This document shows, one piece after another, positions 4,681-33,050 of a DNA stretch of 64,000 bases (position 1 is the stretch's first letter; each line of letters starts with the position of its first letter). The stretch spans positions 9,692 through 73,691 of the forward strand of contig CAZNVK010000002.1 in NCBI GenBank assembly GCA_964576865.1. The letters are read 5' to 3'. The position numbers were made by a program, and so were the translations under genes. The DNA comes from an uncultured Candidatus Poseidoniales archaeon. GTDB taxonomy: Archaea; Thermoplasmatota; Poseidoniia; Poseidoniales; Thalassarchaeaceae. The notes under the pieces were generated by a model. The model saw only the letters and a program-made list of their open reading frames with translations. It searched no databases and was not told the DNA's origin.

Positions 4681-6018
4681 TCACTTCAACAGATCCGGGT
4701 GCTCCTCGAGATAGCGAATCGTGACTTCTCGATTGCGGAAATCTTCCTCCGAAAGGATGGCCCGGTGCAGAGGTATCAAGGTCTCGACCCCCAGAATCAT
4801 CGTCTCGCCCAGAGCTGCGTCAAGGCGTCTGACTGCCTCTTCGCGATCGCGGCCCCAGACGATCAATTTGGCTAACAGTGAGTCGAATGATGGCGGCATA
4901 TCGTAACCCGTGTGAGCGTGCGTGTCGACCCTAACCCCAGGTCCCGCAGGCCAATGGCACTCCCACAACCTCCCGGGTGATGGCTCGAGAGTTCGTGGGT
5001 TCTCCGCGTTGAGTCTTGCTTGGATGGCATGGCCCGAGATTTCAATGTCTGACTGGGCCACCGGTAGGCTCTCGCCTGCCGCGACTCTGATGCCCAGCGA
5101 TACGAGGTCGTAACCGGTGATCATCTCGGTCACCGTGTGTTCGACTTGGACGCGTGGGTTGACTTCGAGGAAGTAGAATTCGCCGTGGGCATCGCGCAGG
5201 AATTCGAATGTGGCGAGTCCCTTGTAGCCTACCGCCTTGGCGCCAGCGACAACCTTCGCTCCGATTTCTGCGCGGACCTCTTCTGAGAGCCACGGTCCCT
5301 CCTCGAGGATTTTCTGGTGGCGGCGTTGGATGGAGCAGAATCTCTCGCCGAAGTGGACTGCGTCCGTGCCGTCGCCTAGGACTTGGAATTCGACGTGTTG
5401 GGCGCCCTCGATGAATTTCTCTAGGAAGACTCGGTCGTCGCCGAATGCTGAGAGGGCGCGGCCTTGGCAGAGGTTGAGGGCTGACTCGAATTCGTCGGCT
5501 GATTCGACGACCTGCATGCCGATTCCGCCTCCTCCTGCTGCTGCTTTAATGATGACAGGGAAGCCGATATCGTCGGCGATTGCAGAGGCTTCGGAGGGAT
5601 CGGAGATTGGACCTGGTGAGCCCTTCGCGATTGGGAGTCCAGCGCGGGACATCGATTCGCGAGCGGTGATTTTGTCGCCTAGGACCCGTAGGACTTCGGG
5701 GCTTGGGCCGATGAAGGTGATGCCCTCTTCGGCTAGGCGGTCGGCGAAGATGGGATTCTCTGCGAGGAAGCCGTATCCAGGGTGAACTGCGTCCGCGCCG
5801 ACCTCTTTTGCGGCAGCGATGATGGCCTCGATATCCAGGTAGGATGCCAGTGGGTCGTTGCGGTTGATGAATACCGCTTCATCGGCGAGACGCACGGGCG
5901 TTGTGAGCCTGTCTTCCCGCCCGTGAATCATCACAGCCTCGATGCCGAGGCTGCGCAGCGACCGCAGGATCCTCAGGGCGATTTCTCCCCGATTGGCAAT
6001 CAGCACTCGCCTGAACAT
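4681..6018 (-). CDS. accC: biotin carboxylase (acetyl/propionyl-CoA carboxylase ATP-grasp subunit)
   Basis: MFRRVLIANRGEIALRILR.., HPGYGFLAEN, ATP-grasp core, EVNPRVQVEH. Start trimmed to ATG 6018. No BCCP or carboxyltransferase gene is adjacent. Confidence 0.85.
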   Translation of the reverse strand: MFRRVLIANRGEIALRILRSLRSLGIEAVMIHGREDRLTTPVRLADEAVFINRNDPLASYLDIEAIIAAAKEVGADAVHPGYGFLAENPIFADRLAEEGITFIGPSPEVLRVLGDKITARESMSRAGLPIAKGSPGPISDPSEASAIADDIGFPVIIKAAAGGGGIGMQVVESADEFESALNLCQGRALSAFGDDRVFLEKFIEGAQHVEFQVLGDGTDAVHFGERFCSIQRRHQKILEEGPWLSEEVRAEIGAKVVAGAKAVGYKGLATFEFLRDAHGEFYFLEVNPRVQVEHTVTEMITGYDLVSLGIRVAAGESLPVAQSDIEISGHAIQARLNAENPRTLEPSPGRLWECHWPAGPGVRVDTHAHTGYDMPPSFDSLLAKLIVWGRDREEAVRRLDAALGETMILGVETLIPLHRAILSEEDFRNREVTIRYLEEHPDLLK

Positions 6019-6229
6019 CACCCTTTGGGTGATGCACCCCATCTATCATCCCATCGTGAGAAGACCTCTCGCAGAGTTCGCCGTGGTCGCAGAGGCAGAG
6101 CACACCGCGCGCCCAACCACCGGCCAAGTTGCAGATGCCGTAATTGGAAACCTTGCTCTTACTGAGAATTCAAGCGAATACCGTGACGCCGAGGGTCTGA
6201 CCATTCACTAAGCGAAATTGATGAAAATC

Positions 6230-6279
6230 AGTCGCGAAGCGACTCTGGATGAGCGCAGTCTCGCTCTCGAGAGCGAGAC
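6230..6279 (-). terminator. two stem-loops downstream of the FAD/NADPH reductase gene
   Basis: A perfect 22-bp palindrome GTCTCGCTCTCGAGAGCGAGAC lies at 6258..6279. A hairpin AGTCGC-GAA-GCGACT lies at 6230..6245. A T-rich run follows on the minus strand. Confidence 0.5.
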
Positions 6280-6298
6280 ACATCAGACCTGAGGCGGA

Positions 6299-7576
6299 TC
6301 AATAGACATCTCGGAGGTATCGCTTGTCGGTCTTCATCATCCCGACCTCGACGAATTGCTTGGCCTCGTCGGCGCTCATTCCACCGTGCTCCTCACAGAT
6401 GTCCATGAGCGTCTGATGGACGTCCTTGGCCATGCGCGACTTGTCGCCGCAGACGTAGAAGTAAGCGCCGCCGTCGATCCAGTTCCAGATCTCCTCGCCG
6501 TGCTTGCGCATCAAGTGCTGCACGTACACCTTCTCGGCGCCGTCTCGGCTCCAAGCGAGGTCGTGGCGGTCGAGGACTCCGCGCTCCTTCCAATCATCCA
6601 TCTCATCGCGGTAGTAGTACTCGCCCGCCTCGGTCCAGTCACCGAAGAAGAGCCAATTGCGACCCTTGTCGCCATTGATGTCACGCTGCTGAAGGTAGGC
6701 TCGGAATGGTGCGATTCCAGTGCCTGGACCGACCATGATGCAATCCGTGTCGCCGTCTTCAGGCAGAATGAATGATCGGGTCGGCGACATGAAGACGCCA
6801 ATCTCCGTATCGTTCACCCCGCAGCGGTCGGACATGAATCCGGTGCAAAGCCCCGTTCGGTCACGACCGTGGTGCGAATAGCGCACGATTCCGACAGTCA
6901 GGTGAACGGTGCCCGGCTCATGCTCTGGGCTGCTGGCGATGGAGTAGAGGCGAGGCTTGAGCCGGTCCATTCCATCGACGAGTTGTTGGGCGGTAAATCC
7001 GATGTGGCCGAAGTCGCCGAGCGCATCGATGTAATCTCGCGACCACATGTAATCCTCCATGGAGTCCGCGTCGCCGGTCAAATCGCGCCAAAGCGCCTCG
7101 GCCGGATCGCAAGCCGCACCGATCTCCGCATACCCTTCGGGAACATCCTCGCCTTCTCCCGAGCCAGACCAATCGACCAACAATGCGCCGTCAGCCGTCG
7201 AGACGCGCTGCCGGCGAGAAATCCGAATCTCAATCGGCGAATCGCCGGAGAGCCGGTTGCCGAGGTTCTCGATCCACTTCTTCGAGACTCGATGGATCTC
7301 CAAGTGGTCGGTCAGCGCCTCCCTCAGCGTGGCAGCGCCGAGGTGAGTCTCGACCGTCTCGTCACCCGAGAAGTTAGCAGCTGCCAACAGATCATCGACG
7401 AGTGCTGGGGGACAGCGTGGGATGACGCCTAAGGCATCTCCAGCCTTGTAGGTCAGTCCCGAGTCACCCAAGTCGAAGACGATGTGGCGGGTTTCCTTGC
7501 CCGAACCCTCACCGTTGAGAACGAAATTCTCGGTCAGCTTCGAGGCGTACGGATTCTTCGCACTCCAATCGGACAT
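6299..7576 (-). CDS. CysJ/FNR-like FAD- and NADPH-binding oxidoreductase (no flavodoxin domain)
   Basis: ORF 6299..7945 trimmed to ATG 7576 (MSDWSAKNPY). Motifs are RLYSIASSP, GPGTGIAPFRAY and YVCGD..MAKDV, ending in ..LRDVY as in the diflavin reductase C-terminal half. Confidence 0.75.
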   Translation of the reverse strand: MSDWSAKNPYASKLTENFVLNGEGSGKETRHIVFDLGDSGLTYKAGDALGVIPRCPPALVDDLLAAANFSGDETVETHLGAATLREALTDHLEIHRVSKKWIENLGNRLSGDSPIEIRISRRQRVSTADGALLVDWSGSGEGEDVPEGYAEIGAACDPAEALWRDLTGDADSMEDYMWSRDYIDALGDFGHIGFTAQQLVDGMDRLKPRLYSIASSPEHEPGTVHLTVGIVRYSHHGRDRTGLCTGFMSDRCGVNDTEIGVFMSPTRSFILPEDGDTDCIMVGPGTGIAPFRAYLQQRDINGDKGRNWLFFGDWTEAGEYYYRDEMDDWKERGVLDRHDLAWSRDGAEKVYVQHLMRKHGEEIWNWIDGGAYFYVCGDKSRMAKDVHQTLMDICEEHGGMSADEAKQFVEVGMMKTDKRYLRDVY

Positions 7577-24175: not shown

Positions 24176-25978
24176 ATGAACCTGAACCAATTGATGAAAA
24201 ACAGAACACAGACCGCAATGCTGCTCGCATTATTGATGGTAACAGCTCCGCTTCTGGCAGGCTGTGTCGGAGGTAGCGACCTGTCTTGTGGAGAAGGAAC
24301 AGAACGACTAGGAGACGAGTGCGTTGTCGACGACTCCGAGCCTGTATGGCAAGGAGAATGGAAGGAATTCAATGTCGAGGCCGCACAATGGGATTTCATC
24401 CCGAGTGAGATAATCGTGAACGAGGGCGACCACGTTCGAATCACCTTCACCTCGACGATGGATGAGCAGGATCAGTATTTGCTCCATTCATTCTCTCTGA
24501 ACGCGTACGATATCGCTGTCGACTTGCCTGTCGGTGAATCTGTAACGGTTGAGTTCGTCGCTGACCAAGTCGGCGAGTTCGGCTACGACTGCTCGGTCTT
24601 TTGTGGAGACCGACACAACGACATGCTCGGGACGGTGATCGTCAACCCCGCTGGCGGTCAGGTCGTCGAGGCTGCTCCAACAATTGGAAACACCACTGCA
24701 TTGGAGATTAGCACCCAAATTTACGACACCACGACATCACCTGGTGGCACACCTGGATGGGTAAACGGAGATTTGATGATAGTCATCGAGCGTGAAGCCG
24801 AAGCAGTCGTGGTTGTTGATACATCGACCGACGAGATTGTCGGCCGTATTCACGGCTTGGGATATCAGCCTCACACCGTGGTATTCGACGAAGAGGCACG
24901 TTACGGTTACCTAATCAGCCGAGGAGGATGGTTCTCGAAAATCGACCTTGATGACCTATCAGTACCTGCATACATCAAGGTCGGTGAATCAAGTAGAGGA
25001 ACCGCTCTATCTTCTAATGGCAACTGGATTGCTGTCACGAATTACGAACCTTCGTCCTTCGTAATTGTCAACGCCCACACGATGGATATCGCCATGGAAT
25101 ACCAAATTCCGGTCCCATGGGTAGACGGTGAACCCCAGTTCTCTCGAGCTGCTAGTGCACTCGACACCGCAAATGGATACATCTTCGTGGCGATGAAGGA
25201 TCTGGGTGAGATTTGGGTCATCGACGCAGATGAGACACGATGGAGCGAGAGCCCATTCCCAGTCGTAAAGGTGTTCAACCACCAAGGTGGAATGCTCCAC
25301 GACGCATTCATCACCCCTGACGGACAGTACTACATTCTGGCTAGCCAAACCAGCCATCAGATGGCTGTTATCGACGCCGTCAATCTAGAGGAAGTTGCTC
25401 TTGTTGAGGTCGGGTTGAAGCCTCACCCAGGCCCAGGAGCGGTCTGGGCTGACTACATTTTCACCCCAAGTATTGGTGAGGGAAAACTCAACATCATCGA
25501 TTCAAGAACTTGGTCGAACGAGTTCGAGTTGCCAATCGGTGGTCCAGCGCTTTTCACAAGAACCTACGAGTTCGGTGACCCCACTACCGATGAGGAGTGG
25601 GAGAAGGACCCAGCCAACCTGCAGTATCCATACATCTGGTGGGACACAGTTCTCTCGACCGATATGGAGGAGAACAAAGAGGTCTACGTCCTCGACGCCC
25701 GTGAGCTCTATGTCCCAGGAGCGACCGATGATAGCATCGCTGCGACCGTCTGGACGCTGAAAGACAACGATTGTGAAGGTCGTACGCTGCACCCCGAATT
25801 CAGCCACGATGGAACCAAGGTGTATGTCTCGTGCTGGGCCGAGGAGGGATTCCTGTTGATCTACGAGTCGACGCCTGGTGCTGATGGCGAGTTCGACCTG
25901 CTCGGAAAGATCGAAGGAATCGCCAATCCGACTGGAACCTTCGGTGTCGGACTAAGGTCCGAGGAGATTGGAGTCTGA
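24176..25978 (+). CDS. lipoprotein: N-terminal CuA-type cupredoxin domain fused to cytochrome-cd1 (NirS d1-domain)-like beta-propeller
   Basis: Lipobox LLAGC. The CuA ligand pattern is HSF-x32-CSVFCGDRHNDM (H-x34-C-x3-C-G-x2-H-x2-M). Propeller segments match NirS from memory: GYQPHTVVFDEEARYGYL, MLHDAFITPDGQYY, KPHPGPGAVW, HPEFSHDGTKVYVSCW and NPTGTFGV. Confidence 0.7.
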   Translation: MNLNQLMKNRTQTAMLLALLMVTAPLLAGCVGGSDLSCGEGTERLGDECVVDDSEPVWQGEWKEFNVEAAQWDFIPSEIIVNEGDHVRITFTSTMDEQDQYLLHSFSLNAYDIAVDLPVGESVTVEFVADQVGEFGYDCSVFCGDRHNDMLGTVIVNPAGGQVVEAAPTIGNTTALEISTQIYDTTTSPGGTPGWVNGDLMIVIEREAEAVVVVDTSTDEIVGRIHGLGYQPHTVVFDEEARYGYLISRGGWFSKIDLDDLSVPAYIKVGESSRGTALSSNGNWIAVTNYEPSSFVIVNAHTMDIAMEYQIPVPWVDGEPQFSRAASALDTANGYIFVAMKDLGEIWVIDADETRWSESPFPVVKVFNHQGGMLHDAFITPDGQYYILASQTSHQMAVIDAVNLEEVALVEVGLKPHPGPGAVWADYIFTPSIGEGKLNIIDSRTWSNEFELPIGGPALFTRTYEFGDPTTDEEWEKDPANLQYPYIWWDTVLSTDMEENKEVYVLDARELYVPGATDDSIAATVWTLKDNDCEGRTLHPEFSHDGTKVYVSCWAEEGFLLIYESTPGADGEFDLLGKIEGIANPTGTFGVGLRSEEIGV

Positions 25979-27224: not shown

Positions 27225-28013
27225 ATGAACGATTTGAACGCACTACTCCACCATGATTCAAATGGCCAGGTTCACAACAGTCTAGCACCTCTAATCGTAG
27301 CCCTCGCCGTTACACTCTGCTTAGGTGGGTTGCTCATCTGGCCCCTCGCGATTCTCGGCTTACCACTGTTGATTCTGGGGATCAGAACTTGGCTCGCAGA
27401 GGAGGTCGAATTTTGGCCAAAAAGAGAATCGCAAACAGATTTCGAGGTTTGGGGAGACGCGTCTTGGGCGATGCTATGGATCATCATAACGGAGACCATA
27501 GTGTTCTCCGCATTCTTCGCCTACTGGTTCTGGACTCGTTGGCACACCGTGAACTGGTCGGGCGCTGTTGGTGGATCGTGGCCAGCTACAGGGGTCGACC
27601 ATGACTTGTTCTTGGTTGGGATCAACACCATCCTGTTGATCTCTTCTGGATTCACAGCACATCGAGCCTTGGAAGCACACGATCGAGATGACCTCAACTC
27701 CTCGTCCAAATTCCTCGTTGCAACAATCCTTCTCGGAACCGCGTTCCTCGCGATACAGGCATACGAGTATCTACATGCGGGATTCGTCTGGAGTGACCAT
27801 CCCTACGGCACCGCATTCTTTGCACTGACTGGCCTACACGGTCTACACGTTCTGGTTGGCTTGGTCATGCTCGCCGTGGTTCTTTTGCTGATGAAAACGG
27901 ATCGTTTTCCTCGTGCACGTCACGATGGTTTTCGAGCGATTACCAATTATTGGCACTTCGTTGACGCCGTCTGGATTATCCTGTTCTTCGTTGTCTACTT
28001 GGAGGTGATTTGA
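27225..28013 (+). CDS. coxC: cytochrome c oxidase subunit III
   Basis: Multi-TM, with ..FFALTGLHGLHVLVG.. and ..YWHFVDAVWI.. signatures. Confidence 0.85.
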   Translation: MNDLNALLHHDSNGQVHNSLAPLIVALAVTLCLGGLLIWPLAILGLPLLILGIRTWLAEEVEFWPKRESQTDFEVWGDASWAMLWIIITETIVFSAFFAYWFWTRWHTVNWSGAVGGSWPATGVDHDLFLVGINTILLISSGFTAHRALEAHDRDDLNSSSKFLVATILLGTAFLAIQAYEYLHAGFVWSDHPYGTAFFALTGLHGLHVLVGLVMLAVVLLLMKTDRFPRARHDGFRAITNYWHFVDAVWIILFFVVYLEVI

Positions 28014-28756
28014 TGCGATTCAACAAGACCCAACTCGGGCTCATCATCGGTTCCATATTGGTTTTGATGATGACGTTCGCATCCATCTTCAACTGGTTCC
28101 GAGGACTCGGTGGCAGTGGCGCTCACGCAGAGGTTTACGACGAGCTGTTTACTCTGTATTGGGTGCTTGGAAGCATAATCGGGATAATCGTTTACGCCTG
28201 GTTCGTCTACTTGCTCGTCGGTTCCTTCGGCGATGATGCCGGCGAGCCGATGGAGATTGGCGCAGCACCAGTGATTCGAGGCTCAAACAAGGGTGCGGTC
28301 ACCATTTCGGTAGTGATAATGGTCTTCCTGCTCGTTCTCTCGGACACTACATTCGATTCGATCGACTTTTTTGAGAAGCACGAGGAACATACTACCGAAG
28401 ACTCGTTCACAATTGCAGTGACTGGATACCAGTACTATTGGGATTATCAGTATCCGAATGGTAAGAGCATCAACAGCGCCAGCGGTGAGGCACTGAAGAT
28501 TCCCGTCGATGTTCCTGTTGTCTTCGAAGTCACCGCTGGTGACGTCTTCCATTCCTTCGCACTCCCCGACCATCGCATCAAGATCGATGCGATTCCTGGT
28601 CGTGTGAATGAAGGGTGGATACTTGCCGATGAGATTGGCATGTTCCCTGTTCGCTGCGCGGAGCTTTGCGGAGATGAACACGCAATCATGGTTGGTGAAA
28701 TCGAAGTCATGACAGTGGAAGACTTCGATGCTTGGTATGAGGAGGTGGAAGTTTGA
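28013..28756 (+). CDS. coxB: cytochrome c oxidase subunit II (CuA)
   Basis: The ATG overlaps the coxC stop (TGATG). Two N-terminal TMs. CuA motif HSFALP...CAELCGDEHAIM. Confidence 0.85.
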   Translation: MRFNKTQLGLIIGSILVLMMTFASIFNWFRGLGGSGAHAEVYDELFTLYWVLGSIIGIIVYAWFVYLLVGSFGDDAGEPMEIGAAPVIRGSNKGAVTISVVIMVFLLVLSDTTFDSIDFFEKHEEHTTEDSFTIAVTGYQYYWDYQYPNGKSINSASGEALKIPVDVPVVFEVTAGDVFHSFALPDHRIKIDAIPGRVNEGWILADEIGMFPVRCAELCGDEHAIMVGEIEVMTVEDFDAWYEEVEV

Positions 28757-31014
28757 TCGGTTCGAAGAAGAAAATCAGTACAAGCAAGGCTCTGTCCATA
28801 CTCGTCATCAGTTCACTGCTGCTCATCGCAACACCACAATTCGCAGCACTTCCGGGTGGAATCTCAGGGCCATCCGTTGGAGCTGGATGTAATTGTCATG
28901 GGGCGGTTGCCAGCGATGATGTCACAATTATCTTGGAGGGATTGCCGGATGAGTTCATCGCTGGTGAGACGTACCTTGTAAACATCTCATTCGAGGGTGG
29001 GCCCGAAGCAAGTGGAGAGAATTATGGTGGATTCAATCTAGCCGCATCTCGAGGCACTTTCACTGTGCTCGATAACTCCATCCAAATCATGGATGGCGCT
29101 GTGACACACAGCGAATCGGGTAATGACCAAAGGTCCTGGCAAGTTGAGTGGACAGCACCATCTTCTGACAAGGTGAGTTCTCAATTCACCCTGCTCGTTA
29201 ATTCCGTCAATGGTGATGGCTACGCCACTAGCGATGACAAGTGGAATCGCCTCGATTTCTCTGTCCAAGGTCAGAACGCAGGCTCTGGTTCGATTATGGA
29301 CATCGCCGACCCCGCTTGGTTGATCATCGTCGGCGCATTGATTGGTACGATTCTGGCTGTGGTCTATGCACTATATCGAAAGCCCAATTTCGGTCGCAAG
29401 GAGTTGATGCATTGGCTGACGACTACAAACCACAAGGATATCGGTCTGCTCTACCTGTGGACGACGATTCTGTTCTCGATGATCGGACTGGCTCTCTCAG
29501 TCCTAATTCGTCTACAGCTCGTCGTGCCTGACAATGATTTCATGACTGGAGATCTGTTCAACCAAGCAGTCACGATGCATGGCGCCGTGATGGTGCTATT
29601 CGCGATCTCGCCGATGTCATTCGCCTTCGCGAATTACATCGTTCCACTACAAATCGGCGCCCGCGACATGGCCTTCCCACGGCTGAACGCCTTGTCATTC
29701 TGGACACTTCTTCTGGGAGGATTGGTTGCAGCGTCGGGCTTCTTTTTCGATGGAGCGGCTGATGTCGGCTGGACATTCTACTCGCCGCTCACCAGCATCG
29801 AGTACAGCCCAGGATCAGGTGTATCACTTGCTGGTGCTGGACTAGTCCTTCTCATCATCTCGGTGACAGCCTCGACGGTGAATTTCCTCGTCACAATCTC
29901 GAATCACCGAGTTCCGAGCATGAGGATGTGGGACATGCCCATGTACACCTGGAACGTTCTGTTCACCGTTATCCTCATGCTCGTTGTCTTCCCTGCACTT
30001 CTGGCCGCCGTCCTGATGCTCGTAGGTGACAGAGTCTTCGGCACTATGTTCTTCGATCCCAGCATCGATGGAACTACCTGGTGGCTTCACATCTTCTGGT
30101 TCTTCGGCCACCCCGAGGTCTACATCGTTCTGCTTCCTGGACTCGGGATGGCGATGGAGATCGTCCCTACCTTTGTGCGTAAGCATCTCTACGGTCGCAA
30201 GACCATCATCTACGCTTTGATGATCGCCTCAGTCCTCAGTGTATTGGTCTGGGCTCACCACATGTTCATCACAGGAATCGACCCACTATTCCGCAAGATA
30301 GAGACCATCGGCACCGAACTCATCTCGGTGCCGTTCGCGCTCATCTATCTGAGCCTGCTCGCAACTTTCCACAAATCCAAACCAGATTTCACGAAGTTGC
30401 CACTCGTCTTCGTCATGGGTGCAGTTGGGATATTCCTAGTTGGTGGAATCACAGGAGTATATCTCGCCAGCGTGGCTATGGACGTACAATTACGAGGCAC
30501 ATACTTCATCGTCGCTCACTTCCACTACACACTCGGCGCGGTGGCTGTGATGACCCTCGGCGGAATCTACTACTGGTATCCCAAGATGTTCGGGAGGATG
30601 CTCGATGAACGGTTGGGATGGTGGCATTTCTGGACTACATTCCTAGGAATCAATCTGACATTCATCCCTCTATTCGGCTTGTGGGACATGCCCCGCCGAA
30701 TATACGTCTATCAGGTCGAGGCGGGATGGGCTGACCAGCACCTCTGGGCAACCATCGGCTCCCTCGTGGTCTTTATTGGTCAGGTTATCTTCTTCTGGAA
30801 TTTCATCCGCAGCCTCAAGCACGGCGAAGAGGCTGGCGACGACCCCTGGGGAGGACACACCTTTGAGTGGTTGACGAGCTCCCCTCCGCCCGCACACAAT
30901 TGGGACAATCTACCAATGATGTCAGGTTGTATCGATTGTGGTAATTGTGACTGTTCGAAGGAAATCGGTGGTAGATGCTCAAGCTGCGAGAAGACCTTGA
31001 ATATCCCTGCGTGA
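28753..31014 (+). CDS. coxA: cytochrome c oxidase subunit I with extra N-terminal secreted reeler-like GCxCHG domain and C-terminal Cys-rich tail
   Basis: The TTG start overlaps the coxB stop (TTGA) and has GGAGGTGG 5 nt upstream. The subunit I core has WFFGHPEVY and AHHMF. The first ~190 aa are a signal plus a non-oxidase domain. The last 32 aa carry 6 Cys. Confidence 0.85.
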   Translation: MIGSKKKISTSKALSILVISSLLLIATPQFAALPGGISGPSVGAGCNCHGAVASDDVTIILEGLPDEFIAGETYLVNISFEGGPEASGENYGGFNLAASRGTFTVLDNSIQIMDGAVTHSESGNDQRSWQVEWTAPSSDKVSSQFTLLVNSVNGDGYATSDDKWNRLDFSVQGQNAGSGSIMDIADPAWLIIVGALIGTILAVVYALYRKPNFGRKELMHWLTTTNHKDIGLLYLWTTILFSMIGLALSVLIRLQLVVPDNDFMTGDLFNQAVTMHGAVMVLFAISPMSFAFANYIVPLQIGARDMAFPRLNALSFWTLLLGGLVAASGFFFDGAADVGWTFYSPLTSIEYSPGSGVSLAGAGLVLLIISVTASTVNFLVTISNHRVPSMRMWDMPMYTWNVLFTVILMLVVFPALLAAVLMLVGDRVFGTMFFDPSIDGTTWWLHIFWFFGHPEVYIVLLPGLGMAMEIVPTFVRKHLYGRKTIIYALMIASVLSVLVWAHHMFITGIDPLFRKIETIGTELISVPFALIYLSLLATFHKSKPDFTKLPLVFVMGAVGIFLVGGITGVYLASVAMDVQLRGTYFIVAHFHYTLGAVAVMTLGGIYYWYPKMFGRMLDERLGWWHFWTTFLGINLTFIPLFGLWDMPRRIYVYQVEAGWADQHLWATIGSLVVFIGQVIFFWNFIRSLKHGEEAGDDPWGGHTFEWLTSSPPPAHNWDNLPMMSGCIDCGNCDCSKEIGGRCSSCEKTLNIPA

Positions 31015-31024
31015 AGGGGCGCTT

Positions 31025-31573
31025 ATGCAGGACGATCGCTGGGCATGGCTCATCGCTCTGTTCTGCGCCCTGCTGATAGCCTTCGCTCCCTCGGCTGTCG
31101 CGGATGACCACGATGAGGACGAGGATGAACACGATGACGAAGGCAGGGAGAACGAATTGGAGGATGCTGGCGAGACTGTTGGTGAGATCTCTGCCTGGTT
31201 GCTGGGTTTGACTCTGGCGTACTTCGGATGGAAAAGGGTCCTGCCGCCGATTCGAAAGCGATTGAAGGCGTCCGAACAGAAGGACCAACTCAAACGATTG
31301 AACTCATGGAACAAGCGTGCCATTCCCATCCACACTCTCCTCGGGACTGCGGCTCTGATTACCGGATTCATTCACGGATTGATGATGGACGAATCGCATC
31401 CAACCCTGTGGATCGCCCTCTTCCTCATGGGCGTTCTATCCGTGTCAGGTAGTCTGATGCGATGGAAATGGCCGCCTCGTGAAGTCAAGAGAGGTGCCCG
31501 ATTGCTACACATGCAGAGGCTGATATCGCTCGTGGTCGTGGCGCTCCTCTTCGTAGGTCACGAGATGGTCTGA
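31025..31573 (+). CDS. membrane protein: signal, Asp/Glu/His-rich segment, 4 TM helices with 4 His (cytochrome-b-like)
   Basis: DDHDEDEDEHDDEGRENELED, then helices carrying IPIHTLLG, FIHGL, LLHMQ and VGHE. Confidence 0.5.
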   Translation: MQDDRWAWLIALFCALLIAFAPSAVADDHDEDEDEHDDEGRENELEDAGETVGEISAWLLGLTLAYFGWKRVLPPIRKRLKASEQKDQLKRLNSWNKRAIPIHTLLGTAALITGFIHGLMMDESHPTLWIALFLMGVLSVSGSLMRWKWPPREVKRGARLLHMQRLISLVVVALLFVGHEMV

Positions 31574-31610: not shown

Positions 31611-31626
31611 CCCGAACATGTTCGGG
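31611..31626. promoter_or_regulatory. perfect 16-bp palindrome CCCGAACATGTTCGGG, with a half-site CCTGCT-AT-GTTCGG at 31651..31664
   Basis: Read directly. The ATG at 31618 lies inside the palindrome, so I place the CDS start downstream. Confidence 0.55.
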
Positions 31627-31671
31627 GCGAGTGATATTGTGCTTACTTTGCCTGCTATGTTCGGGGGTCAG

Positions 31672-32355
31672 ATGCGAGCAAGACTAACTCCTCCATCCGG
31701 TGGCTTCTTGGCGAAGGGGTCCGTCATTTCACTACTGATCATTCTCCTTCTGGCTCCCACTTCATTCGCATTTCCTACAGGCATCTCTGGTTCATCGGTT
31801 GACCTAGGTTGTATGTGCCATGGTGACGCGACCACCGACGAGTCGGTCGAGATCCAGTTACTCGGTCTGCCCGAAGTCTGGGATGTCGGAGTTGCCTATG
31901 AACTGACTCTGCAGGTGAGCTCGGCTGTCCCTGAGAATGGAGAAACAACAGCTGGATTCAATCTGCGAGCGACCGCAGGTATTCTAGTTGCGATTGACAC
32001 CTCTGTCCAATTATTGGATGGTGAATTGACCCATACCGAAGCAGGCAACTCTCAAAGGTCCTGGGATTTCATCTGGACGGCCCCCTCGAAGGCTAGTCCA
32101 AGGGTCGGATTCAAAGCCTTCGTCAATACTGTCGATGGAGATGGAACCGCTGATTCTGAGGACCGGTGGAACTCCTTCGAGACGCAGGCCAATGGACCCG
32201 CAGCGGTTTGGACGGGTACTGATTCTCCTCCCGTTTGGAAATCCATGCTTCTGGGTCTCTTCCTCGCAGCGATTGTAGTAAACATCCTCCCTCATGGTGG
32301 TGGAGCAGCTGAGATTCGCGGCAAGAGAAGCCAGATCTCAGAAGGCGAGGAATGA
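31672..32355 (+). CDS. secreted, C-terminally anchored paralog of the CoxA N-terminal GCxCHG (reeler-like) domain
   Basis: Start trimmed to ATG 31672 (MRARLTPPSG.. signal). It aligns by eye with CoxA residues ~30-190: GISGxSV..GCxCHG, GLP, GFNLxA, THxExGNxQRSW..WTAPS, VNxVxGDG..WN. C-terminal TM LLGLFLAAIVVNIL. Confidence 0.55.
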   Translation: MRARLTPPSGGFLAKGSVISLLIILLLAPTSFAFPTGISGSSVDLGCMCHGDATTDESVEIQLLGLPEVWDVGVAYELTLQVSSAVPENGETTAGFNLRATAGILVAIDTSVQLLDGELTHTEAGNSQRSWDFIWTAPSKASPRVGFKAFVNTVDGDGTADSEDRWNSFETQANGPAAVWTGTDSPPVWKSMLLGLFLAAIVVNILPHGGGAAEIRGKRSQISEGEE

Positions 32356-32396
32356 ATATGGGAAGTGTACCAAGCATGGTCCGGAGAAAGGTCGAC

Positions 32397-33050
32397 ATGC
32401 AGCACCTCCTGATTTCAATCCGTCTTCCTGAGGGGCATTGGGCTGGGGATTTAACTCGGTCTAATCCAGGCGTATCAATTCGAGTTGACGAACATATGGC
32501 CCTTCCCGAAGGCCGAGGTCTCAGCACTATCGTTGTAGCTGGAAATGGCATGGATCGCTTCGTTAGCGACCTCGAAGCTCACGACGGAATGGAGGGAGCA
32601 GCCATTTTCGAAGAGCATGAGGACACGATCGAAATGAGTGTTACAATCGCACGTCACGGTGGAGGATTCCTTCGCCCACTAATCAGAGCCGAAGTGACGC
32701 CACAGACACCTTTCACTGTCAGGGATGGTTGGGTTGAATGGGAGTTTGTAACCGACCACGAGCACGTCAAGAAGTTAGTGAAGGGGCTCAAAGAGTCCGA
32801 ACTCCCACACAGAATCCACTCACTCTCAAAGGAATCGACTTCTCGCCTATTGACGGTAAGACAACGCGAGGTCTTCGACCTAGCTGTATCTGAGGGATAT
32901 TATGACAATCCACGTCGCATCACTCTGACCGCGCTCGCAGAGAAGGCGGGCGTCTCCAAATCAACACTCTGTGAGATGATTCACCTCATCGAGAAGAACA
33001 TCATCGATGAATTTGCAGATTCCGTAAGGAGGCAGAGTCCAAGAGACTGA
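32397..33050 (+). CDS. HTH_10 (bacterio-opsin-activator-type) transcription regulator
   Basis: C-terminal LTVRQREVFDLAVSEGYYDNPRRITLTALAEKAGVSKSTLCEMIHLIEKNI. Trimmed to ATG 32397. Confidence 0.7.
   Translation: MQHLLISIRLPEGHWAGDLTRSNPGVSIRVDEHMALPEGRGLSTIVVAGNGMDRFVSDLEAHDGMEGAAIFEEHEDTIEMSVTIARHGGGFLRPLIRAEVTPQTPFTVRDGWVEWEFVTDHEHVKKLVKGLKESELPHRIHSLSKESTSRLLTVRQREVFDLAVSEGYYDNPRRITLTALAEKAGVSKSTLCEMIHLIEKNIIDEFADSVRRQSPRD

What the first reader, a model, noticed from the sequence alone, without database searches (positions are those of the whole stretch)
28753..29330. Heme-copper oxidase subunit I carries an N-terminal secreted ~170-aa domain with an invariant G-C-x-C-H-G motif (reeler-like)
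CoxA starts at a TTG overlapping the coxB stop, with GGAGGTGG upstream. It encodes a signal/TM, then a beta-rich domain, and only then the 12-TM oxidase core.

The motifs of the extra domain are GISGPSVGAGCNCHG, GGFNLAASRG, VTHSESGNDQRSWQVEWTAPS and VNSVNGDG..WN. From memory these resemble the reeler domain pattern (C..M.P.HG ... F.GF.l.A ... TH ... W.AP). In eukaryotes that domain is found in reeler-DOMON-cytochrome b561 ferric reductases.

CxCH is one residue too short for a canonical c-heme site. The Cys-x-Cys-His triad is more likely a copper, iron or non-covalent heme ligand set, or a disulfide plus His. A redox or metal domain covalently tethered to subunit I on the outer face would be an unusual way to feed electrons or copper to the oxidase.
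Basis: partly seen in the sequence, partly recalled or inferred. Interest (0 to 1): 0.7.

Follow-up and report, generated by a model that had tools for sequence, protein, structure and literature searches.

The report
Oxidase subunit I with built-in reeler-fold redox domain
In marine group II archaea, the main subunit of the oxygen-reducing respiratory enzyme carries an extra outward-facing domain with a conserved Cys-x-Cys-His site; the same domain is also encoded at the head of the Rieske/cytochrome b operons, which have no cytochrome c1, so it is probably an undescribed electron-carrying module.

Summary
ORF 28753-31014 (+) encodes one 753-aa protein. It has a Sec-type signal peptide, a ~140-aa beta-sandwich domain, an extra TM helix, and then a complete A-type heme-copper oxidase subunit I.

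The fusion is not an artefact. It recurs in more than 90 protein clusters (40-89% identity) and in 50 Poseidoniales/Thermoplasmatota genome loci, in two paralogous cox operon types.

The domain is NCBIfam "choice-of-anchor V" (93 bits against a cut-off of 42). It passes the Pfam Reeler threshold when scanned alone. Its AlphaFold model (pLDDT 91) has the F-spondin reeler domain as its top eight PDB matches.

C46, C48, H49 and H119 are invariant. In the wider family only "CH" is fixed and the upstream Cys spacing varies.

The decisive context is that stand-alone copies of the domain are the first gene of Rieske-cytochrome b operons in at least four lineages, including 63 of 63 MGIIa loci. That is the position where a c1-type subunit gene would be expected (my inference). 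Other copies lie next to Sco or are fused to plastocyanin-like or b561-like modules.

Best reading: a built-in electron-entry domain, analogous to the cytochrome c of caa3 oxidases. The cofactor (copper or heme) is unresolved, and I found no literature on this.

The parts
28741..28748 (+). Shine-Dalgarno-like GGAGGTGG upstream of the coxA start
   Evidence: Sequence read directly.
28753..31014 (+). Fusion gene: signal peptide, reeler-fold (choice-of-anchor V) domain, extra TM helix, then heme-copper oxidase subunit I
   Evidence: ORF. Pfam COX1 scores 424 bits over aa 229-671, and NF041895 scores 93.4 bits over aa 23-166. Full-length homologs of 704-774 aa cover 93-99% of the query.
28753..28848 (+). 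Sec-type signal peptide (aa 1-32; Lys-rich n-region, hydrophobic core, PQFAA/LPGG)
   Evidence: Hydropathy profile and N-termini of homologs. There is no consistent twin-arginine motif among relatives.
28849..29262 (+). Reeler-fold beta-sandwich domain (aa 33-170)
   Evidence: AF2 model with pLDDT 91.4. The Foldseek PDB top hits are 2zou, 3coo and 2zot. Pfam Reeler scores 23.6 bits on the isolated domain.
28888..28899 (+). Cys46-Asn-Cys48-His49 (tgt aat tgt cat), the invariant motif
29107..29109 (+). His119 (T-H-S/T), the second invariant histidine and a candidate fourth ligand
   Evidence: Invariant in alignments A1 and A3.
29287..29379 (+). Extra transmembrane helix TM0 (aa 179-209). It carries the chain from the outside back to the cytoplasmic N-terminus of the oxidase core.
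   Evidence: Hydropathy profile. The helix is conserved in all fusions in the alignment.
29437..30765 (+). Oxidase core (Pfam COX1). It contains the GHPEVY, AHHMF and VAHFHY ligand motifs.
   Evidence: and the translation.
28010..28756 (+). coxB (subunit II) with an intact CuA motif: H-x34-CAELCGDEHAIM
   Evidence: Pfam COX2 and TIGR02866 at 160 bits, above its cut-off. The motif was read from the translation.
27225..28013 (+). coxC (subunit III)
   Evidence: Pfam COX3 at 120 bits.
31025..31573 (+). 182-aa membrane protein with an acidic N-terminus and four invariant TM histidines (H103, H117, H162, H179). It is a candidate di-heme b-type cytochrome, but it is present beside the fusion only in this lineage.
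   Evidence: Alignment A2. BLASTP against the DUF4079 region of P0217 gives E=3e-5. Five of 14 family members give sub-threshold Ni_hydr_CYTB hits. Among the genome loci it was found only in the window and L012.
31618..32355 (+). Stand-alone paralog of the same domain (CMCH) with a C-terminal TM anchor
   Evidence: NF041895 at 87.3 bits. A stand-alone copy is conserved downstream of type-1 cox operons in L005, L012-L015 and L023.
32352..33050 (+). HTH_10-type regulator that closes the conserved type-1 cox cluster
   Evidence: Pfam annotation of the orthologous gene in L005/L006. phmmer with the window protein finds the ortholog at the end of the cluster in L005/L006, L012-L018 and L023.

Best explanation
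The N-terminal extension of CoxA is an outward-facing electron-transfer domain built into the terminal oxidase.

Topology. It is exported co-translationally by Sec and folds as a reeler-type beta-sandwich. An extra TM helix holds it on the outer face next to the CuA domain of CoxB.

Proposed site. C46, C48, H49 and H119 form a redox-cofactor site. I favour copper (about 45%), because two Cys plus two His are the core ligand set of a CuA or type-1 centre. Covalently or axially bound heme is second (about 30%).

Proposed pathway. The same domain, as a stand-alone membrane-anchored protein, is a subunit of the Rieske/cytochrome b complex and does the job of cytochrome c1. Electrons would then flow in this order:
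1. Quinol to the Rieske centre.
2. Rieske centre to the domain on the bc complex.
3. From there, directly or through small blue copper proteins, to the domain on CoxA.
4. Then to CuA, heme a, and heme a3-CuB.

The arrangement is functionally like the fused cytochrome c of caa3 oxidases. It differs in using another fold and cofactor and in sitting on subunit I.

Shown: the fusion, the fold, the conservation and the gene contexts.

Inferred: cofactor binding, redox activity and the order of electron transfer.
For: 1. The fusion is conserved in two paralogous cox operon types and in 50 genome loci. One MAG (BH15) has both fused types plus two stand-alone copies, one beside Sco (L023, L041, L024).

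2. C46, C48, H49 and H119 are invariant at 45% mean identity.

3. Stand-alone family members pass NF041895 at 75-106 bits. They are the first gene of operons ordered domain, small TM protein (DUF7318), Rieske, cytochrome b N, cytochrome b C. This holds in L095, L096, Thermoplasmatota L065 and Poseidoniaceae L073/L076/L089. It also holds in 63 of 63 MGIIa metagenome loci with enough upstream flank. In L098 the operon is flanked by unrelated genes.

4. MGII is reported to have cytochrome b and Rieske but no canonical bc1 (PMC6336850).

5. Other fusions pair the domain with redox modules: plastocyanin/halocyanin-like in P0149, and DUF4079 with faint prokaryotic b561 similarity in P0217.

6. A 4-His membrane protein related to DUF4079 lies directly downstream in the window.

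7. Bona fide Sco genes (CxxxC...H; Pfam 75-85 bits) lie directly upstream of stand-alone copies in 7 loci and close type-2 cox operons. This fits copper loading of a Cys/His site.

8. Archaeal precedent: the Sulfolobales cbsAB/soxNL cluster has a non-cytochrome-c 'c1 analog' (CbsA) and a hydrophobic protein beside the Rieske protein and cytochrome b (PMC5461723).
Against: - No cofactor has been demonstrated, and no tool here can do so.
- No model coordinates were available. I could therefore check neither the clustering of C46/C48/H49/H119 nor the distance to CuA.
- The domain is also fused to a secreted Endonuclease I (L082, L090) and to plain Ig-like spacers with cell-surface anchors. Those fusions need no redox role.
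- Eukaryotic reeler domains are usually regarded as adhesion modules.
- The bc-operon evidence comes from stand-alone paralogs, not from the fused copy, and was not seen for the window's own MGIIb lineage.
- CxCH is not a known heme-c site, and Thermoplasmatota largely lack the CCM system (PMC4429474). Equally, no copper protein with this motif or fold is known.
- The 182-aa His-rich neighbour is lineage-specific.
Confidence: 0.5

Rival explanations
1. Built-in copper chaperone. The Cys-x-Cys-His site binds Cu(I) on the outer face and hands it to CuB in subunit I or CuA in subunit II during assembly. It would work with Sco and replace the missing Cox11/PCuAC.
For: - Sco genes are adjacent to stand-alone copies in 7 loci and sit at the end of type-2 cox operons.
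- No Cox11 or PCuAC family appears in the Pfam annotation of the cox clusters examined, L005-L008.
- Cys/His ligands and a membrane-tethered beta-sandwich resemble Cox11, which has a CFCF motif (my own knowledge).
- The domain is fused to the two kinds of copper protein seen here, COX1 and a plastocyanin-like domain.
Against: - A copper chaperone has no obvious place as the first gene of Rieske/cytochrome b operons, since those complexes contain no copper.
- A permanent 1:1 fusion kept in two oxidase paralogs suits a catalytic-cycle role better than a single-use one.
- There is no sequence relation to Cox11, PCuAC or Sco.
- The Endonuclease I fusion is unexplained by this reading too.
Confidence: 0.17
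2. Non-redox structural or docking module. The reeler-fold domain would be a general surface module for adhesion, oligomerisation, supercomplex pairing of the bc complex with the oxidase, or anchoring in the space under the S-layer. The Cys/His residues would then form a structural Zn site, or a CxC disulfide plus His.
For: - It is a 'choice-of-anchor' family found with many passenger domains and anchors: CARDB, Big_7, fn3, PGF-CTERM-like tails and Endonuclease I.
- Eukaryotic reeler domains are described as adhesion modules of unknown function.
- Foldseek neighbours beyond the reeler domain are cohesins, pilins and Ig-like domains.
- Several stand-alone copies sit next to large surface proteins, with no redox genes in the annotated flanks.
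Against: - Repeated, independent association with respiratory modules is far more than expected for a generic surface domain. The partners are COX1 (twice), Rieske/cytochrome b operons in four lineages, Sco, a cupredoxin and a b561-like module.
- Two Cys and two His that stay invariant in an otherwise fast-evolving domain point to a ligand site.
- The 'CH' pair is kept even where the Cys spacing changes or one Cys is lost. That is not what a simple disulfide predicts.
Confidence: 0.2
3. Annotation or assembly artefact. On this reading the true coxA starts at the internal Met (…ELMHWLTTTNHKD…), and the upstream domain is a separate gene joined by a frameshift or a lost stop codon.
For: - An in-frame ATG exists just before the canonical CoxA N-terminus.
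- Stand-alone versions of the domain with their own C-terminal TM helix exist.
- Unfused COX1 relatives of 504-528 aa at 56-64% identity exist.
Against: - The same continuous reading frame is found in more than 90 distinct protein clusters at 40-89% identity, from several assemblers and sources. It is also found in 50 genome loci, in two operon types.
- The topology is self-consistent: domain outside, TM0, then the N-terminus of the core inside.
Confidence: 0.01

Closest known systems
caa3-type heme-copper oxidases (cytochrome c domain fused to subunit II)
   Same: A terminal A-type oxidase carries its own extracytoplasmic electron-entry domain next to CuA, and membrane-anchored free copies of the same carrier exist in the cell (own knowledge of the family).
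   Different: Here the extra domain is on the N-terminus of subunit I behind an added TM helix. It has a reeler beta-sandwich fold, not a class I cytochrome c fold. It carries CxCH rather than CxxCH.
Sulfolobales CbsA of the cbsAB/soxNL 'bc1-analogous' cluster
   Same: An archaeal Rieske/cytochrome b operon that lacks cytochrome c1. It encodes a different protein regarded as a 'c1 analog' together with a small hydrophobic protein (PMC5461723). This parallels the order domain, DUF7318, Rieske, cytochrome b found here.
   Different: Homology between CbsA and this domain was not tested because no CbsA sequence was at hand. CbsA is a b-type cytochrome. It is not known to be fused to an oxidase subunit.
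Eukaryotic Reeler-DOMON-cytochrome b561 proteins (FRRS1/SDR2, Drosophila CG8399)
   Same: They share the fold family, on the Pfam Reeler and Foldseek evidence. They also share the association of an extracellular reeler domain with a transmembrane b-type cytochrome. Compare P0217 (domain, Big_7 repeats, DUF4079) and the 4-His neighbour gene in the window. [quoted passage not shown]
   Different: The archaeal proteins have no DOMON domain. The eukaryotic consensus lacks the Cys-x-Cys-His motif (recalled, not tested). The partner here is a heme-copper oxidase or a Rieske/cytochrome b complex, not an ascorbate-dependent b561.
Cytochrome f / cytochrome c1
   Same: Same operon position and same topology: signal peptide, extracytoplasmic domain with a Cys...Cys-His site near the mature N-terminus, and a C-terminal TM anchor. 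Cytochrome f is also a beta-sandwich (own knowledge).
   Different: Neither cytochrome f nor c1 appears among the top 50 Foldseek PDB hits. The motif spacing is 1 (or 4 to 8) rather than 2. Heme attachment is unproven, and the CCM system is unknown in the lineage.
Cox11 / PCuAC / Sco copper chaperones
   Same: Membrane-tethered extracytoplasmic beta-rich domains with Cys/His/Met sites that serve heme-copper oxidases. Gene adjacency to Sco mirrors bacterial Sco-PCuAC pairs.
   Different: No sequence or fold match to those families. The bc-operon membership does not fit a chaperone.

Membership tests
NCBIfam NF041895 choice-of-anchor V domain | Score above the curated cut-off (42 bits) over the whole 150-position model | tested here: met
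   93.4 bits, aa 23-166 matching model positions 2-146. The paralog scores 87.3 bits, and the bc-operon copies score 75-106 bits.
Pfam PF02014 Reeler domain | Score above the gathering threshold (21 bits) | tested here: inconclusive
   19.6 bits in the full-length protein, below threshold. 23.6 bits for the isolated domain, above threshold. Eighteen of 39 relatives hit Reeler at E<=1. Only model positions 29-119 are aligned, so the N-terminal motif region is not covered.
Reeler fold (structural) | Beta-sandwich that superposes best on solved reeler domains | tested here: met
   AF2 model pLDDT 91.4. The top eight Foldseek PDB hits are F-spondin reeler domains (2zou, 3coo, 2zot), at E 3e-7 to 1e-5, TM about 0.5 and 22-25% identity.
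Heme-copper oxidase subunit I, A-type | COX1 profile match, with the heme a / a3 / CuB histidines and the His-Tyr motif GHPEVY | tested here: met
   PF00115 at 424 bits over aa 229-671. TIGR02891 scores 564 bits, below its equivalog cut-off of 670. The motifs GHPEVY, AHHMF and VAHFHY were read in the translation.
c-type cytochrome | CxxCH heme-attachment motif | tested here: not met
   The window protein and all 86 genome ORFs have CxCH. Only 2 of the 147 newly returned top representatives have CxxCH.
c-type cytochrome | Host encodes a cytochrome c maturation system (CCM or CCS) | tested here: inconclusive
   No WWD-motif protein was found in the window or in the first 91 fetched loci, which are centred on the domain's own genes and cox clusters. 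That is only a small part of any genome. The literature reports Cytc in only two single-cell Thermoplasmatales genomes.
Cupredoxin / CuA centre | Cupredoxin profile match and the canonical ligand spacing (H...C-x3-C-x3-H-x2-M, or C-xn-H-xn-M) | tested here: not met
   No cupredoxin family hit for the domain, and no cupredoxin among the top Foldseek hits. Only the ligand inventory (2 Cys + 2 His) resembles CuA.
Cox11 / PCuAC copper chaperones | Profile match to the Cox11/CtaG or PCuAC families | tested here: not met
   No such hit in the Pfam or NCBIfam scans at E<=1.
Rieske-type [2Fe-2S] domain (motif box II, CPCHG) | Box I (C-x-H-x-G-C) plus box II (C-x-x-H), and Tat export | tested here: not met
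   The domain has only two Cys, no box I, and a Lys-rich Sec-type signal with no consistent twin-arginine. The resemblance of G-C-x-C-H-G to box II is treated as coincidental.
Subunit of a Rieske/cytochrome b complex (cytochrome c1 analog) | Co-operonic with the Rieske protein and cytochrome b across lineages, and co-purifying with the complex | tested here: inconclusive
   The operon criterion is met for stand-alone paralogs in four lineages and in 63 of 63 MGIIa loci. It was not shown for the window's own lineage. Physical association cannot be tested with these tools.

The most novel reading that the evidence does not exclude
The reeler-fold Cys-Xn-Cys-His domain is a new class of respiratory redox protein. 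In Poseidoniales, among the most abundant planktonic archaea, and in related Thermoplasmatota it would replace both cytochrome c1 (as a subunit of the Rieske/cytochrome b complex) and cytochrome c (as a domain fused to oxidase subunit I). Its cofactor would be a previously unseen copper or heme site. By homology this would also assign a redox or metal-site role to the so far function-less Reeler domain of eukaryotic Reeler-DOMON-b561 ferric reductases.
Probability: 0.4. Interest if true: 0.9.

Novelty: new variant of a known kind. Interest (0 to 1): 0.76.

Why it matters
- **An open question becomes testable.** MGII/Poseidoniales dominate surface-ocean archaeal communities and are uncultured. 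Their respiratory chain has been described as having cytochrome b and Rieske proteins but no canonical complex III (PMC6336850). A concrete candidate for the missing carrier can now be tested. It is present both in the bc operon and inside the oxidase polypeptide.
- **A new cofactor site may be involved.** If the domain is redox-active, it adds a new fold and a new metal or heme site to the short list of proteins that connect quinol oxidation to oxygen reduction.
- **It may explain a large unassigned family.** The family has thousands of 50%-identity clusters without a function. It would also give a first functional lead for the eukaryotic Reeler domain in b561 ferric reductases.
- **It corrects annotation.** These proteins are currently labelled only "cbb3-type cytochrome c oxidase subunit I" or "hypothetical".

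Tried and rejected
1. **Frameshift or misassembly.** Rejected by the breadth of the fusion.

2. **Fe-S cluster.** G-C-x-C-H-G looks like Rieske box II (CPCHG). Rejected because the domain has only two Cys, no box I and a Sec-type signal, and no extracytoplasmic Fe-S assembly is known.

3. **Sequence search of the domain profile against PDB.** No hit even at E<=10.

4. **Foldseek against viral structures.** Only generic Ig-like hits, not informative.

5. **Genome scan with the 39-sequence alignment.** It failed for lack of a conserved stretch. A 10-sequence alignment worked, but the 80 loci kept were all Poseidoniales or Thermoplasmatota. Taxonomic breadth outside these archaea could therefore not be measured.

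6. **AF2 model of the 182-aa His-rich neighbour.** Too poor (pLDDT 65) for a fold search.

7. **Source names for the Cx2-8CH variants.** The sources give none, so their taxa remain unknown.

8. **Literature searches.** Searches for 'choice-of-anchor V', 'CXCH', 'reeler domain' with heme or copper, 'DUF4079', and MGII with Rieske returned nothing that describes this domain's function or the fusion.

9. **Search for cytochrome c maturation genes.** No WWD motif in the window or the first 91 fetched loci, but this is not genome-wide and so is inconclusive.

10. **Contexts of several stand-alone copies** (L001, L009, L010, L092-L094, L097). They are housekeeping or surface-protein neighbourhoods and were uninformative.


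Full report
**1. The observation**

The ORF at 28753-31014 (+) encodes 753 aa. Its TTG start overlaps the TGA stop of coxB in the sequence TTGA, and GGAGGTGG lies five bases upstream.

The product has these parts:
- A Lys-rich, hydrophobic Sec-type signal ending in PQFAA/LPGG.
- A beta-rich domain of about 140 aa.
- A short Gly/Ser linker.
- An additional hydrophobic helix at aa 179-209.
- The canonical CoxA N-terminus (…WLTTTNHKDIG…) and a full Pfam COX1 match at aa 229-671, 424 bits.

The extra helix makes the topology consistent. The domain is outside and the start of the oxidase core is inside. The core keeps the GHPEVY, AHHMF and VAHFHY ligand motifs, and CoxB keeps a complete CuA motif. 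This is therefore a CuA-containing A-type oxidase.

**2. The fusion is real and old**

A search with the full protein returned dozens of clusters of 704-774 aa. They cover 93-99% of the query at 40-89% identity. Where the sources name them, they are Thalassarchaeaceae, Poseidoniaceae, Poseidoniia or Euryarchaeota. Every full-length one has CxCH at aa 25-50.

In one-genome-per-species contigs, 50 loci carry the fusion. It occurs in two different operon types:
- **Type 1, as in the window.** The order is CuA-cupredoxin/beta-propeller protein, CBS, COX3, COX2, fusion, sometimes the 182-aa protein, a stand-alone copy of the domain, then HTH_10. Some genes are missing or placed elsewhere in individual loci.
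- **Type 2.** The order is sometimes a plastocyanin-like gene, CtaA and CtaB, then COX2, fusion, COX3, COX4, and in most loci Sco.

One MAG (BH15) has both fused types plus two stand-alone copies, one downstream of its type-1 operon and one beside Sco (L023, L041, L024). Unfused COX1 relatives at 56-64% identity also exist. The extension is therefore a lineage trait, not a universal one.

**3. What the domain is**

- It passes NCBIfam NF041895, "choice-of-anchor V", at 93.4 bits against a cut-off of 42.
- Against Pfam Reeler it scores 19.6 bits inside the full protein and 23.6 bits alone. The threshold is 21 bits. Eighteen of 39 relatives also hit Reeler.
- An AlphaFold2 model built on 39 sequences has pLDDT 91.4.
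- Its eight best Foldseek PDB matches are all the F-spondin reeler domain, at E 3e-7 to 1e-5 and TM about 0.5.
- A sequence profile finds nothing in the PDB.

The family is large. It has 3669 50%-identity clusters at E<=1e-3 and 819 at E<=1e-10. I found no paper on its function. [quoted passage not shown]

**4. The conserved site**

In 39 non-redundant domains, at 45% mean column identity, the invariant residues include G45, C46, C48, H49 and a second histidine, H119. These two Cys are the only ones in the window domain.

Of the 147 representatives newly returned among the 150 best, 137 have CxCH and 2 have CxxCH. The remaining 8 include CGGxGCH (Cx4CH), Cx6CH, Cx8CH and one with a single Cys (…GATCH…). 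All align at the same position. The constant feature is "Cys-His" preceded by a second Cys at variable distance, together with H119.

- **For heme c.** This is formally the logic of heme-c sites. However, the dominant spacing of one residue is not a known heme-attachment motif. Spacing that drifts within one family is more typical of metal-binding loops. The signal peptides are Sec-type. Thermoplasmatota are reported to be almost devoid of c-type cytochromes and the CCM system.
- **For copper.** Two Cys plus two His is also the core ligand set of a CuA or type-1 copper centre.
- **For Fe-S.** The likeness to Rieske box II (CPCHG) was rejected. There is no box I, there are too few Cys, and there is no Tat signal.

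**5. Context that bears on function**

Stand-alone family members are the first gene of Rieske/cytochrome b operons.

- In L095 the order is domain (Cx6CH), a DUF7318 TM segment fused to a Rieske protein (Tat signal, CTHLCC…CPCH), cytochrome b N, then cytochrome b C.
- In L096 the order is domain (single CH), DUF7318, Rieske, cytochrome b, cytochrome b C with Fer4, then CCG. This operon lies next to nuo and tatCA genes.
- The same order is found in Thermoplasmatota L065 and in Poseidoniaceae L073, L076 and L089.
- An independent scan seeded with cytochrome b, not with the domain, returned 80 MGIIa metagenome loci. All 63 with enough upstream sequence carry the domain gene upstream on the same strand.
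- In L098 the five-gene operon is flanked by unrelated genes.
- These proteins all pass NF041895 at 75-106 bits.

MGII have been described as having cytochrome b and Rieske proteins but no canonical bc1. The Sulfolobales cbsAB/soxNL cluster is a precedent for an archaeal bc analog with a non-c-type "c1 analog" and a hydrophobic partner.

**6. Further associations**

- P0149 is domain, three CARDB repeats, then a plastocyanin/halocyanin-like domain.
- P0217 is domain, five Big_7 repeats, then DUF4079, with faint prokaryotic b561 similarity.
- The window's 182-aa neighbour aligns to the DUF4079 region of P0217 at E=3e-5. It has four invariant TM histidines, two of them 14 residues apart on one helix. 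It is found beside the fusion only in the window and L012.
- True Sco proteins (CxxxC…H; Pfam 75-85 bits) sit directly upstream of stand-alone copies in seven loci and at the end of type-2 operons.

Two observations point the other way. L082 and L090 fuse the domain to a secreted Endonuclease I. Several stand-alone copies also lie in uninformative neighbourhoods.

**7. Interpretation**

The best-supported reading, at about 0.5, is that this is a respiratory electron-transfer domain. As a free, anchored protein it serves the Rieske/cytochrome b complex in place of cytochrome c1. Fused to CoxA, it is a built-in electron-entry site next to CuA, like the cytochrome c of caa3 oxidases but on another subunit and with another fold.

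Copper is my preferred cofactor. The reasons are Sco adjacency, Sec export, variable ligand spacing and a lineage poor in c-type cytochromes. Heme is second, because of the CXnCH logic and a topology like that of cytochrome f.

The rivals are:
- A Cox11/PCuAC-like copper chaperone, at about 0.17. It is favoured by Sco adjacency and disfavoured by the bc operons.
- A non-redox docking or adhesion module with a structural Zn site or disulfide, at about 0.2. It is favoured by the nuclease and Ig-spacer fusions and disfavoured by the repeated respiratory associations and the invariant "CH".
- An artefact, at 0.01 or less.

None of the cofactor or electron-transfer steps is shown. They are inferences from conservation and gene context.

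**8. Limits**

- No model coordinates were available. The spatial clustering of the four residues and the distance to CuA could not be checked.
- The bc-operon link was seen for paralogs in MGIIa and three other lineages, not for the window's MGIIb lineage.
- Whole-genome absence of cytochrome c maturation genes could not be tested.
- The literature search covers open-access papers and bioRxiv only.

**9. Verdict**

The finding is confirmed as an observation, and the reeler assignment holds. The functional idea, a redox domain feeding the oxidase, gains substantial support from contexts outside the window. It is a new variant of a known design, an oxidase with a fused electron-entry domain, built from an uncharacterised domain family. 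There is a realistic chance that the domain is a new class of redox protein.

Noticed in passing
window 24176-25978 (+): A 600-aa protein with an N-terminal cupredoxin carrying a CuA-type motif (H…CSVFCGDRHNDM), followed by a beta-propeller. Pfam Cytochrom_D1 hits at 2.6e-46. The CuA part resembles NosZ and L-NosZ but scores far below their cut-offs. It is conserved upstream of type-1 cox operons (L012, L014-L018) and downstream of the fusion gene in L005. It may be an electron donor or an uncharacterised oxidoreductase.
   Followed up: partly
window 30928-30987 (+), CoxA aa 726-745: A cytoplasmic C-terminal Cys-rich tail, CIDCGNCDC…CSSC. It is found only in the closest relatives (P0020 and P0021 with 6 Cys, P0030 and P0037 with 3) and is absent from the other fusions. 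It may be a lineage-specific metal-binding tail.
   Followed up: partly
window 31025-31573 (+): A 182-aa membrane protein with an Asp/Glu/His-rich outer N-terminus and four invariant TM histidines. It is related to the DUF4079 region of P0217 and looks like a small di-heme cytochrome b. Among the fetched loci it lies beside the oxidase only in the window and L012.
   Followed up: partly
L078:9971-11602, L041:9881-11272 and similar type-2 operon loci: The Sco proteins here are 380-540 aa long. They carry a large insert with repeats such as SQYGHY..GG.EAP.D..WYW.L..WN and a Cys-rich EGF-like piece (CSGHGW.MG…HCMCDDGY.WD). Only the SCO1/AhpC part has a Pfam match.
   Followed up: no
L073:8928-11747, L098:7877-10693, L096:10429-12326: In these Rieske/cytochrome b operons the cytochrome b C-terminal subunit is fused to, or followed by, a 4Fe-4S ferredoxin domain and HdrD-like CCG domains. 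In MGIIa there is also a large extracellular insert. This is an unusual complex III architecture.
   Followed up: partly
L082:5890-7131, L090:5890-7464: The same reeler-fold CxCH domain is fused to a secreted Endonuclease I in L082 (Pfam Endonuclease_1 at 2.5e-28). L090 carries a similarly long domain-bearing ORF at the same coordinates. The electron-transfer model does not explain this partner.
   Followed up: partly
L019, L021, L027, L028, L029 (e.g. L028:8006-8923, minus strand): An FTR1-family iron permease (142 bits) lies 1.5-2.5 kb from the stand-alone domain gene in MGIIb genomes. A transferrin-like ABC binding protein is nearby in L001. This may simply be conserved synteny among close relatives.
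   Followed up: no
L083:5926-9651: The domain, COX1 and COX3 lie in one open reading frame in one Poseidoniaceae MAG. This is either a further fusion or a sequencing frameshift.
   Followed up: no
L031:5018-5773 (-) and 5905-6588 (+): Two divergently oriented stand-alone copies of the domain gene lie side by side.
   Followed up: no
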